From an uncultured Chryseobacterium sp. (GTDB lineage: Bacteria > Bacteroidota > Bacteroidia > Flavobacteriales > Weeksellaceae), in the NCBI RefSeq assembly GCF_913778085.1, contig NZ_CAJYXJ010000008.1: a DNA stretch of 64,000 nucleotides. One strand, given 5' to 3'. The position numbers were made by a program, and so were the translations under genes. Shown one piece after another: positions 22,176 through 26,520 of the stretch. Positions within the stretch are counted from its first letter, which is position 1; every line of letters starts with the position of its first letter. The notes under the pieces were generated by a model, which did no database searches, was not told the origin of the DNA, and worked only from the letters and a program-made list of their open reading frames with translations.

Positions 22176-23102
22176 TTATTTTTGAGAAGCTTCTTCCGCT
22201 TCTTCCATCAGTTTAATATAGGTAGCATATCGGGAATGCTGTATTTCTCCTGTTTCCAGTGCTTCAACGACGGCACATTTCGGCTCATTGATATGAAGGC
22301 AGTTGTGGTATTTGCATTCTTCCCTTTTTCTGAAGATTTCCGGAAAATAATGCTGTACTTCTTCCTTTTCAATGTCGATCATGGCAAATTCGCGTACGCC
22401 GGGCGTATCGATTACATTACCGCCGAAATCCCAGAAATGCATCTGTGCAAAAGTAGTGGTATGCTTGCCTTTCAGATGCGTGTCGGAAATTTCAGAAGTT
22501 TTCAGATTAAGCCCGGGCTGCAAAGCATTGACCAATGTGGATTTTCCGCAGCCGGAATGTCCGAAAAACACAGACGTTTTATCCTGAAGCAATTCTTTCA
22601 GATGATCAAGATGTAATCCTGAATAGGATGAAATTTCCAACGAGCTGTAACCGATTTCGCTGTACAGGAATTCTATATCCTTTACAATTTCTGCTTCTTC
22701 TTCGCTTAGCACGTCCATTTTATTGAACAAAATCAGAGGAGAGATATTATAGGCTTCACAGCAGGCAAGGAACCGGTCCAGAAAACCCAGTGAAGTTTCG
22801 GGATGTTTTAAAGTAAAGATAAAGCAGGCCAGATCAATATTGGATGCAATAATATGGGCTTCTTTAGAAAGGTTAACGGATTTTCGGATCAGGTAGTTCG
22901 TGCGCGGCTCAATTTTCGTGATCCAGGCAATATCGTCCTGCTCAAGCTGAAATTCTACAAAATCACCCACAGCAAGAGGATTGGTAAGACGGGTCTTGAT
23001 CAGTTTAAACTTTCCGCGGATTCTCGCCTCGAAAATTTTTTCGGTTTCCAATTCCAGTACCTGATACCAGCTTCCTGTAGATTTAATGATTTTTCCTTTC
23101 AT
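22176..23102 (-). CDS. rsgA: Ribosome small subunit-dependent GTPase A
   Basis: NKMD, GHSGCGKSTLVN, GKHTTT, DTPG, CKYHNCLHINEPKC. Confidence 0.97.
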   Translation of the reverse strand: MKGKIIKSTGSWYQVLELETEKIFEARIRGKFKLIKTRLTNPLAVGDFVEFQLEQDDIAWITKIEPRTNYLIRKSVNLSKEAHIIASNIDLACFIFTLKHPETSLGFLDRFLACCEAYNISPLILFNKMDVLSEEEAEIVKDIEFLYSEIGYSSLEISSYSGLHLDHLKELLQDKTSVFFGHSGCGKSTLVNALQPGLNLKTSEISDTHLKGKHTTTFAQMHFWDFGGNVIDTPGVREFAMIDIEKEEVQHYFPEIFRKREECKYHNCLHINEPKCAVVEALETGEIQHSRYATYIKLMEEAEEASQK

Positions 23103-23242: not shown

Positions 23243-24322
23243 CTACCTATTGATCATAATGCTGTTCTGCACTTCAATGGATTCTTCATGAATGGCTTTG
23301 AATACCTTTTCGATAAACTCCTGTGACATGCCTGTCTCTACCGCTTTCTGGTTGGAATATTCGGTAATTACCTTCCAGCGATCGGGCTGGAAAATCGCAA
23401 TATCATTTTCTTTTTTAAGTTTTCCGATTTTTTCCGAGATCTTCATCCTTTGGGACAGCAGTTCGATCAGCTGAAAATCAATATCAGAAATCAGGGTCCT
23501 GTGTCTTCCCATATCACCTTCGAAGCCTGCAAGGCCGGAATTTCTCATTTTTAAATTTCCGATCAGCCCTGCCAGGACTTCCGGTGTAATCTGCTGAGCG
23601 GCATCACTCCATGCTGCATCAGGATTACAGTGTGTCTCAATAATGGCCCCCTGATAACCGACATTCAGTGCTTCCTGAGTAATGTCTGCCAGGCCGGTCC
23701 TGTTTCCACAGATGTGTGAAGGGTCAATCAGCATTGGGATATTGGGGAACTGACTTTTGAAATCCAGGGCTATCTGCCAATTGGGATTATTCCGGTATTT
23801 TGTTTTCTGATAGGTGGAGAAACCTCTGTGGATCACCCCTAAATTTTTAATGTCCTGTCCTAATAAACGTTCAAGCGCACCGATCCACAAAGCAAGATCC
23901 GGGTTTACGGGATTTTTTACCAGAACGGGCTTATCTGTTCCTCTCAATGCCATAGCAATTTCCTGTACCGTAAACGGATTTACGGTAGAACGCGCTCCGA
24001 TCCACAGAATATCCACGTCCGCTTCCAGTGCGGCAAAAACATGATGGGCATTGGCCACTTCCGTTGCTGTTTTAAAACCATATTCCTCCTTCACTTTTTT
24101 GAGCCAGTTAAGCCCGATAACGCCAACCCCTTCAAAACCGTTGGGTTTTGTACGTGGCTTCCAGATTCCTGCACGGAAAATCGGAACGTTGGCATTTGTT
24201 TCCCGTATTCTTTTCGCAGTTTCCAGCATCTGGGCTTCACTTTCGGCGCTGCATGGCCCCGCAATCATGATAGGTTGTGAGAACTCATCTGTCCAGCAGC
24301 CTTTTAATTCTTTTAAATCCAT
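23243..24322 (-). CDS. Bifunctional DAHP synthase / chorismate mutase
   Basis: IAGPCSAES, WKPRT, WIGAR, DPSH; C-terminal CM domain (RTLISDIDFQLIELLSQRM...IHEESI). Confidence 0.93.
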   Translation of the reverse strand: MDLKELKGCWTDEFSQPIMIAGPCSAESEAQMLETAKRIRETNANVPIFRAGIWKPRTKPNGFEGVGVIGLNWLKKVKEEYGFKTATEVANAHHVFAALEADVDILWIGARSTVNPFTVQEIAMALRGTDKPVLVKNPVNPDLALWIGALERLLGQDIKNLGVIHRGFSTYQKTKYRNNPNWQIALDFKSQFPNIPMLIDPSHICGNRTGLADITQEALNVGYQGAIIETHCNPDAAWSDAAQQITPEVLAGLIGNLKMRNSGLAGFEGDMGRHRTLISDIDFQLIELLSQRMKISEKIGKLKKENDIAIFQPDRWKVITEYSNQKAVETGMSQEFIEKVFKAIHEESIEVQNSIMINR

Positions 24323-24480
24323 TATTCTTACTTATTTTTTGTTTTATATTGAGTATACAGCAAAAAAGCATCATAAAATTACTTTATAATTCTTTTCAAA
24401 AAACTGCCGTTAAAATTTTAATTAAAGGAAATAGGGATTGAAGAAATCAATATCCCGTTATTTTTTGGAAAGAAATTCAG

Positions 24481-24615
24481 TTAACAATACCAATAATAAA
24501 ATCGATAATAAGTTCTGAAATTTCTAAAATAAGCAAACCAAAAGCCGAAATTACCGCTAAAAATTTGATTAGCGGGTACGAAAAAAGACTGATATGGATG
24601 GGTTGATTTTTCCAT
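24481..24615 (-). CDS. Putative aromatic-amino-acid leader peptide (44 aa)
   Basis: Manual translation MEKSTHPYQSFFVPANQIFSGNFGFWFAYFRNFRTYYRFYYWYC: 9 F, 7 Y, 2 W; lies between a promoter and the DAHP synthase gene. Confidence 0.7.
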   Translation of the reverse strand: MEKSTHPYQSFFVPANQIFSGNFGFWFAYFRNFRTYYRFYYWYC

Positions 24616-24690
24616 GGTGAACGTCTGTTCCGGGCTTTTGTTTATTATTTGTTTCCGTCCGGAAAATTATTTTCCAGATCAAATACCTGA

Positions 24691-24719
24691 CAAATATATA
24701 AAATTTATTTAAATATCAA
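24691..24719 (-). promoter_or_regulatory. Sigma70-type promoter for leader plus DAHP/CM gene
   Basis: Minus strand TTG-N18-TATATTTG. Confidence 0.65.
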
Positions 24720-24805
24720 TTTTTGACTTCATCTTTTTTCATGAAACCTGTAAAAAATCAATCTGCTTCCGGTAAGAATTGGTTCATTCTCAACGAATGG
24801 TTGAT

Positions 24806-25444
24806 TTATGTAAGATCAAACCTCATCAAATCATCAAGATCTTTCAGCAGTGGATTTTTTTCAGCGAATTTCTCAAAGATTTTTCTTTTGGTCATTACTT
24901 CGATCTTCAGGTTTTCCGTGTCTCTTTTATAAATCAGCTCAATCGAAAAATTATGGACTTTAGTTTTAAAGTGATTGAAGAATTCCCGGCTCACTTTGTC
25001 AAATTCCACTTTTGCAGAATCCGAAGGATATAACACCGTAATCTGATTTTCACCGGATTTAATAAGTTTGAACGTCTTAATAGCATTAAAGACGAAAGTA
25101 TCTTTCCGCTGAAGCTGTCTCAGCAGCAGGTTCCATTCTGCCTGCAGATCCGTTTCGGTAAAATGATTCTGGGGAAGATTTTCCGTTTTGACGGCAACGG
25201 TTTCCTCTTCAACAACGGTATCTTCCTTATTTAAAAATGCCGTAATGCTGAAGCCTGAAGAGACGACCTGTTTTGTAAGAGGTTTTGTTGTTTTCCTGAT
25301 CTCTGCTTCCTGAGGTTTTGCAATTTCTGAAGATTTTACAGATGCCGGTGCAGCTTCCTGCTTTACTTCTGCTGTTTCCCGGCTTTCAGGAGCTTTCGCC
25401 TGTGTATTTTCTTTTTTAGGAAACGGAGGAAGTATTAAGAACTT
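24806..25444 (-). CDS. dnaX: DnaX tau C-terminal extension in the -1 frame (no own start)
   Basis: Open frame of 212 aa, KFLILPPFPKKENTQAK...LYPSDSAKV...NPLLKDLDDLMRFDLT, beginning inside the A10 run; no ATG near its 5' end. Confidence 0.75.
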   Translation of the reverse strand, partial: KFLILPPFPKKENTQAKAPESRETAEVKQEAAPASVKSSEIAKPQEAEIRKTTKPLTKQVVSSGFSITAFLNKEDTVVEEETVAVKTENLPQNHFTETDLQAEWNLLLRQLQRKDTFVFNAIKTFKLIKSGENQITVLYPSDSAKVEFDKVSREFFNHFKTKVHNFSIELIYKRDTENLKIEVMTKRKIFEKFAEKNPLLKDLDDLMRFDLT

Positions 25445-26520
25445 TTTTTTTTAGCAACGCCTGAATCAGCCGTTAAAGAAGCCAATTGCATCAAAGCAAT
25501 TTCTACGGTAAGCCTCGGATTTTTAGAATTTTTATAATTAATATCTGCATGGTTGCAGATTTCAATCGCATCGATCAGCTGCTGGGGATTCCACTTCTGC
25601 GCCTGTTCCACAAACTTCGCTTTAGTCTGTTCGCCGACTTCAATAAGCTCGATGGTAGAGGTATTCTGCGCCATCATCAGATCTCTGAAATGATTTCCGA
25701 GCCCTGCAATAAAAATATGCGGATCGAACCCTCTCTTAACAATTTCATTAAATGCAAAAAGAACTTCCGGAATTTTATTTTCTTTGGCTAAATCTACTAT
25801 TTTTAAATATTGATCGTAATCCAGGATATTTAAAACTTCGGCAGCTTTGGCTAATGTAATGTTTTTTTGGGAAAAGGTGGAAAGCCTGTCAAAAATGGAA
25901 AGAGCATCTCTTAATGCGCCGTCCGCTTTCTGGGCGATCAGATATAAGGCATCATCTTCGTATTGAATCGCCTCTTTTCGGGCGATGTTTCTAAGGTGCC
26001 CCTGAATATCTTCAATTACGATTCTTTTGAAATCGTAGATCTGACATCTCGATAAGATGGTTGGAATGATTTTGTGCTTCTCGGTGGTCGCCAGAATAAA
26101 GATGGCATGTGCAGGCGGTTCCTCAAGGGTCTTAAGGAAAGCGTTGAATGCTGCAGAAGACAGCATGTGTACCTCATCGATAATATAGACCTTATACTTA
26201 CCAGTCTGGGGTGCGTAACGTACCTGATCGATCAACTCCCTGATATCGTCTACAGAGTTATTGGAAGCTGCATCCAGTTCATAAATATTGTAGGCAAATC
26301 CGTCTTCCGAAACAGAACCGTCCTTTTCATTGATTTTCCGGGCCAGAATCCGTGCGCAGGTGGTTTTCCCTACTCCTCTCGGTCCGCAGAAAAGTAAAGC
26401 CTGAGCAAGCTGGTTTTCCCCGATGGCGTGCTCCAAAGTATCCGTAATGTGAGATTGCCCGACAACGGCGTCAAACTCCTGTGGGCGATATTTCCTTGCA
26501 GATACGATAAAATTTTCCAT
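25435..26520 (-). CDS. dnaX: DNA polymerase III gamma/tau, zero-frame gamma-sized product
   Basis: ARKYRPQ, GPRGVGKTT, DAAS, DEVHMLS, SRC; ends GCT-A10-GT-TCT-TAA. Confidence 0.97.
   Translation of the reverse strand: MENFIVSARKYRPQEFDAVVGQSHITDTLEHAIGENQLAQALLFCGPRGVGKTTCARILARKINEKDGSVSEDGFAYNIYELDAASNNSVDDIRELIDQVRYAPQTGKYKVYIIDEVHMLSSAAFNAFLKTLEEPPAHAIFILATTEKHKIIPTILSRCQIYDFKRIVIEDIQGHLRNIARKEAIQYEDDALYLIAQKADGALRDALSIFDRLSTFSQKNITLAKAAEVLNILDYDQYLKIVDLAKENKIPEVLFAFNEIVKRGFDPHIFIAGLGNHFRDLMMAQNTSTIELIEVGEQTKAKFVEQAQKWNPQQLIDAIEICNHADINYKNSKNPRLTVEIALMQLASLTADSGVAKKKSS

What the first reader, a model, noticed from the sequence alone, without database searches (positions are those of the whole stretch)
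24322..24719. Phe/Tyr/Trp-rich 44-aa leader peptide upstream of DAHP synthase/chorismate mutase
Seen: promoter TTG-N18-TATATTTG, then ORF 24615-24481 with 18 of 44 aromatic residues (F9 Y7 W2), concentrated in FGFWFAYFRNFRTYYRFYYWYC. In-frame stops lie just upstream of its ATG. An imperfect hairpin (GGGA..UUGA/UCAA UCCC followed by UAUUUCCUUU, about 24425-24460) follows, and the aroF/CM start is 158 nt after the leader stop. Known: pheL/trpL-type attenuation uses regulatory-codon-rich leaders. Inference: one long leader integrates all three aromatic amino acids at the entry step of the shikimate pathway. U-rich DNA inflates F/Y codons by chance, and the terminator is weak.
Basis: partly seen in the sequence, partly recalled or inferred. 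Interest (0 to 1): 0.78.

Follow-up and report, generated by a model that had tools for sequence, protein, structure and literature searches.

The report
Aromatic-rich leader peptide before DAHP synthase
A short translated reading frame packed with Phe, Tyr and Trp codons precedes the first gene of aromatic amino-acid synthesis in Chryseobacterium and relatives; it is most likely a variant of the classic leader-peptide sensor, but how it changes gene output is unresolved.

Summary
The ORF 24615-24481 (- strand) encodes 44 aa with F9 Y7 W2. It follows a Bacteroidota-type promoter and ends 158 nt before a DAHP-synthase/chorismate-mutase gene.

It is not a chance ORF. The same frame occurs in all 80 Chryseobacterium species fetched and in 62 metagenome loci. 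The start is ATG, GTG or TTG at one homologous position, indels stay in frame, Tyr and Cys codons vary synonymously, and the gene is always about 150-180 nt downstream.

Around it lie conserved RNA elements:
- a hairpin inside the ORF, supported by covariation;
- region 1 (codons R-N-F-R), which pairs with region 2 starting one base after the stop;
- region 2, which is also complementary to a distal region 3.

This is the classical 1:2 / 2:3 geometry.

However, it folds whatever the ribosome position, and no canonical terminator exists before the gene. The sensor is therefore well supported and the output stage is not.

Similar leaders are already predicted for the Flavobacterium psychrophilum pheA operon and shown for Corynebacterium aroR-aroF. 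Verdict: a new variant of a known kind, of moderate interest.

The parts
24691..24719 (-). Promoter: TTG, 18 nt, then TATATTTG (Bacteroidota -33 / -7 type)
   Evidence: Sequence read. A TAnnTTTG box lies 366-417 nt upstream of the aro ATG in all 80 species loci and is near-invariant in the alignment.
24661..24675 (-). Small hairpin near the 5' end of the transcript (GGAAAAUAAUUUUCC)
   Evidence: Predicted in the RNAalifold consensus of 81 leaders. The sequence varies while the inverted repeat is kept, for example GAAGUUAGCUUC in L023. Its role is unknown and it was not tested further.
24481..24615 (-). Leader ORF: 44 codons plus TAA, with 18 Phe/Tyr/Trp codons
   Evidence: The frame is conserved in 81 of 81 genomes. 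Start codons are ATG 36, GTG 41 and TTG 4 at one homologous position. Lengths are 41-48 aa, so indels stay in frame. Tyr and Cys codons vary synonymously. The ORF is also present in 62 metagenome loci.
24554..24575 (-). Hairpin A inside the ORF (CCGCUAA / UUAGCGG; dG -10.1 kcal/mol), just upstream of the dense aromatic run
   Evidence: Pairing is 97.8%, and 4 of 6 pairs show compensatory changes. Divergent relatives carry unrelated complementary sequences at the same place: AAUCCGCC/GGUGGAUU, AUCUGUCA/UGACAGAU and CUUGUU/AACAAG.
24515..24525 (-). Region 1, AGAAAUUUCAG (codons R38 N39 F40 R41)
   Evidence: It pairs with region 2 over 10 pairs, 95.5% paired. One pair switches from C-G to U-A in 6 of 38 sequences. 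Third codon positions here are frozen (AGA 73/75, AAU 67/75). A clade with compensating 1-nt indels keeps the pairing but changes the peptide.
24489..24506 (-). Inner hairpin AUCGAU / AUUGGU within the Y-R-F-Y-Y-W-Y codons
   Evidence: RNAalifold consensus. Pairing is 96.9%, with one-sided changes only, so there is no covariation for or against it.
24461..24480 (-). Region 2, CUGAAUUUCUUUCCAAAAAA, which starts one base after the stop codon
   Evidence: Nearly all its columns are invariant or at least 90% conserved in the 38-sequence alignment. It is complementary to region 1 (duplex -7.7 kcal/mol) and to region 3 (-9.7 kcal/mol).
24422..24456 (-). Hairpin T (GGGAUAUUGA..UCAAUCCC) plus tail UAUUUCCUUUAA.
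   Evidence: Five of six outer pairs show compensatory changes. Mean dG is -8.0 kcal/mol across 81 leaders, and about 9.5-9.9 of its pairs form in all five ribosome states modelled. I read it as a spacer, scaffold or possible pause site, not a regulated terminator.
24388..24403 (-). Region 3, UUUUUUGAAAAGAAUU, the distal partner of region 2
   Evidence: Fifteen pairs are 96.0% paired, against 42-61% in slid registers, but both strands are nearly invariant. Predicted 2:3 pairs rise from 1.0 with the ribosome at the stop to 7.8 with the ribosome stalled, in 62 of 63 leaders.
24370..24390 (-). Hairpin H4, AUUAUAAA-GUAAU-UUUAUGAU
   Evidence: Pairing is 98.5% and the stem sequence is invariant. 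The loop length varies and the stem is 2 bp longer in L083, which fits an RNA hairpin rather than a protein operator. H4 forms in both ribosome states.
24357..24410 (-). Window-specific long '3:4' hairpin: ACGGCAG..GAAAAG-H4-CUUUUUU..GCUGU, dG -13.1 kcal/mol, including a U6 run
   Evidence: It shares region 3 with the 2:3 helix and is the best terminator-like candidate in this window. However, a U-rich tract after H4 occurs in only 4 of 145 leaders, and the outer helix (P5) is only 50% paired across the family.
23243..24322 (-). Regulated gene: bifunctional DAHP synthase / chorismate mutase (359 aa)
   Evidence: Pfam DAHP_synth_1 (E 1.5e-36) and CM_2 (E 9.4e-22). It is followed by rsgA, as in F. 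psychrophilum.

Best explanation
This is a ribosome-mediated (leader-peptide) cis-regulator of the DAHP synthase/chorismate mutase gene.

Transcription starts at the TTG-N18-TATATTTG promoter. The 44-codon ORF is translated. Its 18 Phe/Tyr/Trp codons make ribosome progress depend on charged tRNA-Phe, tRNA-Tyr and tRNA-Trp.

Region 2, which starts one base after the stop codon, can pair with either of two partners:
- region 1, which lies inside the aromatic codon cluster;
- region 3, about 60 nt further on, with hairpin T as a structured spacer in between.

Proposed logic (inferred):
- Starved: a ribosome stalled at the conserved Y-[YF]-R-N-F-R-x-Y-Y-R-F-Y-W-Y codons covers region 1, so region 2 pairs with region 3. 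This is the induced state.
- Replete: a ribosome that reaches the stop covers region 2, or region 1 re-pairs with region 2 after release. Region 3 stays free. This is the low-expression state.

Hairpin A, inside the ORF and followed by U-rich codons in most species, probably pauses the polymerase until a ribosome arrives (inferred).

What is shown:
- the ORF is conserved and carries signatures of translation;
- hairpins A and T and helix 1:2 covary;
- regions 2, 3 and H4 are invariant;
- thermodynamic modelling makes the 2:3 helix depend on ribosome position.

What is not resolved is how a free region 3 lowers expression. There is no canonical intrinsic terminator. In this window the best candidate is the 3:4 hairpin with a U6 run (24410-24357). 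Otherwise a factor-dependent step (Rho or an RNase) is needed.
For: Translation and selection on aromatic codons:
- The frame is open in 81 of 81 genomes. The start is ATG (36), GTG (41) or TTG (4), never CTG, at the homologous position. Stops are TAA, TGA or TAG.
- Lengths are 41-48 aa, so all indels are in frame.
- Third-position diversity is 0.26, against 0.20 and 0.18 at positions 1 and 2.
- Y44 is TAT 40 / TAC 35, Y50 is 45 / 30, and C51 is TGT 30 / TGC 29. Positions 24 and 37 switch between Tyr and Phe.
- The non-aromatic codons in region 1 are frozen at the nucleotide level (AGA 73/75, AAU 67/75; also CGA 73/75 at R45).
- In the L033 clade two compensating 1-nt indels turn RNFRT into RSSER but give a perfect 10-bp 1:2 helix and restore the frame.

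Linkage to the gene:
- All 62 true metagenome hits have the gene 150-183 nt downstream.
- The leader was also found by peptide search.

Structure:
- Hairpin A is 97.8% paired, with 4 of 6 pairs compensatory.
- Helix 1:2 is 95.5% paired, with C-G changing to U-A in 6 sequences.
- Hairpin T has 5 of 6 pairs compensatory.
- Helix 2:3 is 96.0% paired, against 42-61% in slid registers.

Switch: with the ribosome footprint masked at the stop or 7 codons earlier, expected 2:3 pairs are 1.0 and 7.8 respectively, rising in 62 of 63 leaders (examples).

Precedent: a predicted F/Y/W leader of the F. psychrophilum pheA-aspC3-DAHPS operon, and C. glutamicum aroR-aroF.
Against: - No canonical terminator. 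The pattern scan finds none on the coding strand.
- Hairpin T forms in all ribosome states.
- The hairpin just before the U-run is very weak, with a mean of -1.3 kcal/mol.
- H4 forms in both states, and only 4 of 145 leaders have a U-rich tract after it.
- Free region 3 has no conserved downstream partner.
- Accessibility of the gene's start region does not change with ribosome position (0.58-0.59).
- Real terminators in the same window are strong GC stems followed by U6-9.
- The 2:3 helix and H4 are invariant, so they carry no covariation.
- In single sequences the 1:2 and 2:3 duplex energies are not clearly better than shuffles of the AU-rich flank (z from +0.6 to -2.6).
- Half the species use GTG, a weaker start.
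- Aromatic codons also lie upstream of region 1, where a stall would leave region 1 free. The opposite logic (1:2 = on) is therefore not excluded.
- Kaistella flava and a related genome lack the leader entirely.
- There are no expression data.
Confidence: 0.6

Rival explanations
1. One reading: a pheL/trpL-type attenuator in which hairpin T (24456-24434) plus UAUUUCCUUU is the regulated intrinsic terminator.
For: The hairpin is conserved and covaries. In most Chryseobacterium species its tail has 5 U in 8 nt (55 of 81 leaders). It lies between the leader and the gene.
Against: It forms with 9.5-9.9 pairs in all five modelled ribosome states, and no upstream segment competes for its 5' arm. The distal partner of region 2 lies downstream of T, so the 2:3 helix cannot prevent termination at T. 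The tail is not U-rich in L085, L089 or L083. At about -8 kcal/mol with an interrupted U tract it is far weaker than the genome's own terminators.
Confidence: 0.1
2. Arrest-peptide sensor. The conserved C-terminal peptide (YYRNFRxYYRFYWYC) stalls the ribosome at or near the stop codon in response to free aromatic amino acids, as TnaC does for Trp or SpeFL for ornithine. This keeps region 2 covered and controls a factor-dependent (Rho) termination step.
For: The last 16 residues are unusually conserved at the amino-acid level, with an invariant W two codons before the stop. There is no intrinsic terminator. Region 2 abuts the stop codon, as the rut site does in tna (tna and SpeFL comparisons are from my own knowledge).
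Against: The conserved non-aromatic residues coincide with RNA helices and have frozen third positions, so RNA pairing explains them. The L033 clade changes RNFRT to RSSER. The last residue varies among C, Y, S and F. The leader RNA is C-poor, which is a poor Rho substrate by E. coli rules. There is no direct evidence.
Confidence: 0.1
3. The ORF encodes a functional small aromatic/arginine-rich protein or peptide precursor. The RNA structures serve mRNA stability or an unrelated purpose.
For: There is clear purifying selection on the frame and on many residues. Gene callers occasionally annotate it.
Against: It has no Pfam or NCBIfam family. It is always glued at 150-180 nt to one biosynthetic gene whose end products match the enriched residues. 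The N-terminal half is poorly conserved. Tyr and Phe interchange freely. Peptide sequence is sacrificed to keep RNA pairing in the L033 clade.
Confidence: 0.07
4. A structured 5' UTR that binds a ligand or protein (riboswitch-like or protein-mediated), in which the ORF is incidental.
For: Regions 2 and 3 and H4 are invariant in sequence beyond what pairing alone needs. Some clades have a covarying loop-to-tail pairing typical of compact RNA folds. No terminator-based logic can be completed.
Against: The start position is restricted to ATG/GTG/TTG in 81 of 81 genomes. The frame is restored by compensating indels, Tyr codons vary synonymously, and the stop is always just before region 2. Rfam gives no match.
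Confidence: 0.08
5. A chance ORF in U-rich intergenic DNA.
For: The intergenic region is 28% G+C. ORFs this aromatic appear in 0.7% of shuffles.
Against: Conservation of frame, start, stop position and aromatic positions in 143 loci whose nucleotide sequences differ (75 distinct ORF sequences among the 81 genomes).
Confidence: 0.01

Closest known systems
Predicted leader-peptide attenuator of the Flavobacterium psychrophilum pheA-aspC3-DAHP synthase operon (Guerin et al. 2021, PMC9723704, SI D9 and Table S7)
   Same: Same bacterial class. It is a short ORF mixing Phe, Tyr and Trp codons (MNTNNTFYSNNSFYFYWNIGRDCYMVI). The operon contains the orthologous 360-aa DAHP synthase gene followed by rsgA, as in this window.
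   Different: It is 27 aa rather than 41-48 aa. It sits before pheA, two genes upstream of the DAHP synthase gene. It has a strong canonical terminator (GC stem plus U9) whose 5' arm pairs with an ORF-internal segment. The Chryseobacterium element lies directly before the DAHP synthase gene, has extra conserved hairpins (A, T, H4) and has no canonical terminator. Homology between the two leaders was not tested.
Corynebacterium glutamicum aroR leader upstream of aroF (Neshat et al. 2014, as summarised in PMC11802643)
   Same: A leader peptide with aromatic codons (Phe-Tyr-Phe) controls a DAHP synthase operon by ribosome stalling.
   Different: Different phylum. There are only three regulatory codons, it is reported to respond to Phe but not Tyr, there is no Trp codon, and the RNA is unrelated.
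E. coli pheL-pheA, pheM-pheST and trpL attenuators (Rfam Phe_leader and Trp_leader)
   Same: The logic is the same: regulatory codons overlap region 1, region 2 follows the stop codon, and 1:2 and 2:3 are alternative helices.
   Different: Those use one amino acid each, 14-15-aa leaders and a compact 3:4 terminator with a U tract. Here there are three amino acids, 44 aa and a 60-nt structured spacer between regions 2 and 3, and no terminator was identified. There was no Rfam hit. NCBI's label 'PheM' for one member is not backed by any NCBIfam model or by context.
Bacteroid-trp leader motif (Weinberg et al. 2010; Rfam)
   Same: A leader-peptide attenuator in Bacteroidota for an aromatic amino-acid pathway. 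It maps to the trpE operon in F. psychrophilum.
   Different: It has Trp codons only, lies upstream of trp genes and has a different RNA. It did not match this region even at E <= 10.
TnaC / SpeFL-type regulatory arrest peptides with Rho-dependent output
   Same: A leader ORF whose stop codon abuts the regulatory RNA segment, with no intrinsic terminator needed (from my own knowledge).
   Different: Those sense a free ligand through the nascent chain and induce catabolic or decarboxylase genes. Nothing here shows ligand-dependent arrest or Rho involvement.

Membership tests
Ribosome-mediated (leader-peptide) transcription attenuator | A short ORF with conserved start and stop in the 5' leader of a biosynthetic gene, showing signs of translation | tested here: met
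   81 of 81 genomes and 62 metagenome loci. The start is ATG, GTG or TTG. Indels are in frame or compensated. Tyr and Cys codons vary synonymously.
Ribosome-mediated (leader-peptide) transcription attenuator | Enrichment of codons for the end-product amino acids of the regulated pathway | tested here: met
   18 of 44 codons are F/Y/W, the highest fraction of 536 ORFs in the window. Aromatic positions are invariant or interchange between Tyr and Phe. The gene is DAHP synthase/chorismate mutase.
Ribosome-mediated (leader-peptide) transcription attenuator | Mutually exclusive helices 1:2 and 2:3, positioned so that a stalled ribosome masks region 1 and a terminating ribosome masks region 2 | tested here: met
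   Helix 1:2 is 95.5% paired with one compensatory pair. Helix 2:3 is 96.0% paired but invariant. Region 2 starts one base after the stop. Modelling gives 1.0 versus 7.8 2:3 pairs. Caveat: energies in single sequences are not above shuffles.
Ribosome-mediated (leader-peptide) transcription attenuator | An intrinsic terminator (3:4 hairpin plus U tract) whose 5' arm is region 3 | tested here: not met
   No conserved hairpin-plus-U-tract was found. The window itself has a 3:4 hairpin with U6, but that feature occurs in only 4 of 145 leaders.
Ribosome-mediated (leader-peptide) transcription attenuator | Expression of the downstream gene rises on starvation for the cognate amino acids and depends on leader translation | not testable with these tools
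   This needs reporter fusions, Northern blots or Term-seq.
Rfam leader families (Phe_leader, Trp_leader, Bacteroid-trp, leu/phe leader and others) | A match to the family covariance model | tested here: not met
   cmscan of the whole window at gathering thresholds gave 0 hits. Positions 23800-25300 at E <= 10 gave only chance matches to unrelated families.
PheM (pheST operon leader peptide), the name NCBI gives to one member | A Phe-rich leader of about 14 aa upstream of pheS-pheT, or a match to a curated PheM model | tested here: not met
   The downstream gene is DAHP synthase/chorismate mutase. There was no NCBIfam hit at E <= 10 for three family members.

The most novel reading that the evidence does not exclude
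The element is a leader-peptide sensor whose output is not intrinsic termination. The ribosome-dependent choice between the 1:2 and 2:3 helices would control a factor-dependent step, such as Rho loading or RNase access on the free U6-GAAAAGAAUU / H4 segment. Alternatively, the conserved C-terminal peptide acts as an arrest sequence that reads free aromatic amino acids. Either would be a kind of attenuation not yet described in Bacteroidota.
Probability: 0.2. Interest if true: 0.7.

Novelty: new variant of a known kind. Interest (0 to 1): 0.45.

Why it matters
DAHP synthase is the entry step of the shikimate pathway. How Bacteroidota control it is largely unknown, because they lack T-boxes and the TyrR/TrpR systems of enterobacteria (from my own knowledge).

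This element would give one cis-acting device that reads all three aromatic aminoacyl-tRNA pools at that step. It is conserved in every Chryseobacterium species fetched and in related uncultured Weeksellaceae. It is absent from Rfam and is mislabelled 'PheM' in at least one genome annotation.

Its very conserved RNA segments, together with the lack of any canonical terminator, make it a convenient test case for how attenuation is executed in a phylum with unusual transcription and translation signals. Practically, it is an annotation fix and a candidate amino-acid-responsive control part for Flavobacteriia.

Tried and rejected
- Rfam, at gathering thresholds and at E <= 10: nothing relevant.
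- Pfam and NCBIfam on the peptide: nothing.
- Hairpin T as a regulated terminator: rejected, because it folds in all ribosome states.
- A weak hairpin (UUCCUUUAAA/UUUGAACGG) before the U6 run as the terminator: rejected, with a mean of only -1.3 kcal/mol.
- Sequestration of the gene's start region by free region 3: rejected. Unpaired probability is 0.58-0.59 in all states, and region 3 has no conserved downstream partner.
- H4 plus U tract as a general terminator: rejected. H4 forms in both states and U-rich tails occur in 4 of 145 leaders.
- The outer helix ACGGCA/UGCUGU (P5): only 50% paired.
- A helix ending in the post-H4 segment followed by a U tract: rejected. Partners are inconsistent and only 2.2 U are found in the next 8 nt.
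- A second promoter, or a protein operator at TTGAAA-N18-TATGAT / ATTATAAA-N5-TTTATAAT: rejected. It does not fit TAnnTTTG, only the distal box is conserved, and the half-site spacing varies from 5 to 9 nt as an RNA loop would.
- Pairing between the 3' arm of hairpin A and the end of the ORF: not conserved in L085.
- Energy significance of 1:2 and 2:3 in single sequences: not significant, so these helices rest on conservation and register controls only.
- Literature searches for a described Bacteroidota aromatic attenuator beyond F. psychrophilum: nothing found.
- Reaching other genera (Elizabethkingia, Riemerella, Flavobacterium) was not possible. The genome scan returned only its 80 best loci, all but two titled Chryseobacterium, and the protein search listed only hits of at least 82% identity.
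Full report
**Observation.** On the minus strand, the window carries these features in order:
- a Bacteroidota-type promoter, TTG-N18-TATATTTG, at 24719-24691;
- a 44-codon ORF at 24615-24481 encoding MEKSTHPYQSFFVPANQIFSGNFGFWFAYFRNFRTYYRFYYWYC (F9, Y7, W2);
- an imperfect hairpin at 24456-24434 followed by UAUUUCCUUUAA;
- 158 nt after the stop codon, the ATG (24322) of a 359-aa DAHP_synth_1 + CM_2 protein.

The only imprecision is that the nearest in-frame stop lies 17 codons upstream of the ATG.

Taken alone, the ORF is only moderately unusual. It is the most aromatic of 536 ORFs of at least 30 aa in the window. An equally aromatic ORF appears in 0.7% of dinucleotide shuffles of the 28%-GC intergenic region.

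**The ORF is real and translated.** The DAHP synthase protein retrieved 80 genome loci from the genome collection, nearly all titled Chryseobacterium, at 91-97% protein identity. All 80 have the same reading frame ending ...Y[YF]RNFRxYYRF(Y)YWY[CYS], 148-177 nt before the gene.

The evidence for translation:
- The homologous start position is ATG in 36 genomes, GTG in 41 and TTG in 4, and never anything else.
- Stops are TAA, TGA or TAG.
- Lengths run from 41 to 48 aa, so every indel is in frame.
- The 81 ORFs comprise 75 distinct nucleotide sequences and 66 distinct peptides.

Variation is concentrated at third codon positions (0.26, against 0.20 and 0.18). In the conserved C-terminal part, Tyr and Cys codons switch freely between synonyms: Y44 is TAT 40 / TAC 35, Y50 is 45 / 30, and C51 is TGT 30 / TGC 29. 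Positions 24 and 37 alternate between Tyr and Phe.

The conserved non-aromatic codons behave differently. They are frozen at the nucleotide level (AGA 73/75, AAU 67/75, CGA 73/75), and two of them lie in a predicted RNA helix.

One clade (L033, L035, L038, L049, L064, L072) is especially informative. It carries two compensating single-base indels that turn RNFRT into RSSE(R/K). The sequence AGAAGUUCAG is kept and now forms ten uninterrupted pairs with region 2, and the frame is restored before YRFYYWY (my reading of the alignment; peptides). So both the reading frame and the RNA pairing are under selection, and the aromatic residues are selected as codons.

**Distribution.** A profile of the peptides found nine called proteins in the large protein collection. 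One of them is named by NCBI 'PheST operon leader peptide PheM'. No NCBIfam model supports that name.

Contigs encoding these peptides, and a relative with 83% identical enzyme, show diverged leaders in front of the same gene.

A DNA pattern spanning F-Y-W plus region 2 hit 109 metagenome stretches. Of these, 62 carry a leader with the gene's ATG identified 150-183 nt downstream (enzyme identity mostly 82-93%). The chance hits show neither the leader peptide nor the gene.

Kaistella flava and one related genome lack the leader. There the upstream gene abuts the enzyme gene. Genera further away could not be reached with the capped searches.

**RNA anatomy.** The most conserved nucleotides of the whole leader are not in the N-terminal coding part. 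They lie in four blocks:
- region 1, AGAAAUUUCAG (codons 38-41; 24525-24515);
- region 2, CUGAAUUUCUUUCCAAAAAA (24480-24461), which starts one base after the stop;
- region 3, UUUUUUGAAAAGAAUU (24403-24388);
- the adjacent hairpin H4, AUUAUAAA/UUUAUGAU (24390-24370).

Region 2 is complementary to both region 1 and region 3.

Pair counts on a 38-sequence alignment:

| Element | Cells paired | Variation |
|---|---|---|
| Hairpin A (in the ORF, 24575-24554) | 97.8% | 4 of 6 pairs compensatory |
| Helix 1:2 | 95.5% | one pair C-G to U-A in six sequences |
| Hairpin T (24456-24434) | 86.7% | 5 of 6 pairs compensatory |
| H4 | 98.5% | invariant |
| Helix 2:3 | 96.0% over 15 pairs | nearly invariant; slid registers 42-61% |

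Hairpin A is replaced by unrelated complementary sequences in divergent leaders.

The C-to-U change in region 1 that accompanies the G-to-A change in region 2 recurs in separate clades, including a metagenome clade.

The H4 loop varies in length and the stem is two pairs longer in L083. That argues for an RNA hairpin rather than a DNA operator.

Two caveats apply. The 2:3 helix and H4 never vary, so they carry no covariation. In single sequences the 1:2 and 2:3 duplex energies are not clearly better than those obtained with shuffled AU-rich flanks.

**How it probably works.** The geometry is that of a classical attenuator. A ribosome with its A site anywhere from about codon 34 to codon 47 covers region 1 and leaves region 2 free. 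This span contains the invariant Y36, Y/F37, F40, Y43, Y44 and F46. A ribosome at the stop codon covers the 5' half of region 2.

I folded 63 distinct leaders with the footprint masked. The expected number of 2:3 pairs was 1.0 with the ribosome at the stop and 7.8 with it stalled seven codons earlier, and it rose in 62 of 63 leaders (examples).

I therefore propose the following:
- Shortage of charged tRNA-Phe, -Tyr or -Trp stalls the ribosome on region 1, the 2:3 helix forms, and expression is high.
- With ample charged tRNA the ribosome reaches the stop, region 2 is masked or re-pairs with region 1, and region 3 stays single-stranded.

Hairpin A lies inside the ORF and is followed by U-rich codons in most species. 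It would fit a polymerase pause that synchronises transcription with the first ribosome. Hairpin T would be a structured spacer or timer. Both of these roles are inference.

**What does not fit.** The output stage is missing.
- Its tail is not U-rich in the divergent leaders.
- Genuine terminators in the same window are strong GC stems followed by 6-9 U.
- The small hairpin before the U6 run is negligible.
- Free region 3 has no conserved partner downstream or in the first 200 nt of the gene.
- The gene's start region is equally accessible in all states.
- H4 forms in both states.
- No helix ending after H4 is followed by a U tract.

In this window and three other leaders H4 is followed by a U-rich tract (GCUUUUUUG in the window). 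The whole 24410-24357 segment can fold into a -13.1 kcal/mol hairpin that shares region 3 with the 2:3 helix. This would be a classical 3:4 terminator, though a weak AU-rich one. It is the best local candidate, but it is not a family feature.

In about a third of the lineages, though not in this window, the loop of T is complementary to the segment after H4, with clear compensatory changes: AGCCCU/AGGGCU, AGUCCU/AGGACU, GCUCU/AGAGC and AACGG..UCUUC/GAAGA..CCGUU. The permutation P is 0.00015. Its role is unexplained.

The inverse logic (1:2 = on) cannot be excluded, because aromatic codons also precede region 1.

**Comparison with what is known.** Leader-peptide attenuation is textbook (pheL, trpL, pheM). 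In the neighbouring family, Guerin et al. (PMC9723704) predicted a 27-aa F/Y/W leader with a canonical terminator before the F. psychrophilum pheA operon. That operon reads pheA-aspC3-DAHP synthase-rsgA, so it shares the enzyme-rsgA pair seen here. In C. glutamicum the aroR leader (F-Y-F) is reported to control aroF.

The present element is therefore not a new principle. It differs in several ways:
- it sits directly before the DAHP synthase/chorismate mutase gene;
- it is long and dense (16-18 aromatic codons of all three kinds);
- it has extra conserved hairpins;
- it lacks a canonical terminator.

It has no Rfam family.

**Verdict.**
- The sensor is well supported by comparative evidence.
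- The switch is supported by conservation and limited covariation.
- The output mechanism is open.
- Novelty: a new variant of a known kind.
- Interest: 0.45.

Noticed in passing
window 25435-25460 (- strand), continuing down to 24806: dnaX (26520-25435) ends in a run of ten A (GCT AAA AAA AAA AGT TCT TAA). The -1 frame is open from that point to 24806. It encodes the DUF8439 protein of relatives (50-68% identity) but has no ATG/GTG/TTG for its first ~120 codons. This looks like a programmed -1 frameshift or transcriptional slippage that makes a long tau form, with frame 0 giving the short form. A homopolymer sequencing error is the alternative.
   Followed up: partly
loci L009, L011, L013, L020, L043, L006/L008, L015, L077/L148 (leader region); not in the window: The loop of hairpin T is complementary to the segment just after hairpin H4, with compensatory changes between clades. 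Duplex energies reach -22 kcal/mol and the permutation P is 0.00015. It is either a pseudoknot or an alternative fold. It is present in about 12 of 35 dissimilar leaders and absent in the window's own clade. Its function is unexplained.
   Followed up: partly
protein P0122 (Chryseobacterium sp. IT-36CA2), homologue of window 24481-24615: NCBI names this leader 'PheST operon leader peptide PheM'. The gene context (DAHP synthase/chorismate mutase) and the lack of any NCBIfam hit indicate a misnomer.
   Followed up: yes
L081 (Kaistella flava CP040442.1) and L082: These relatives, with enzymes about 85% identical, have no leader. The DUF8439 gene ends 24-41 nt before the DAHP synthase ATG. The leader has therefore been lost, or was never gained, in part of the family.
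   Followed up: partly
window 24554-24575 and the 15 nt downstream; consensus of L001-L080: Hairpin A lies inside the leader ORF. In most species it is followed by U-rich codons (UUAUUUUAGUUUUU), so it looks like a terminator or pause signal within a coding region. In the window itself the tail is less U-rich (UAAUUUCGGCUUUU).
   Followed up: no
window 22176-23102 (rsgA) and 23243-24322: The DAHP synthase/CM-rsgA gene pair is syntenic with F. psychrophilum, where pheA and aspC3 precede it in one leader-controlled operon. In Chryseobacterium dnaX and DUF8439 precede it instead. This suggests that the leader moved with, or was rebuilt at, the enzyme gene.
   Followed up: partly
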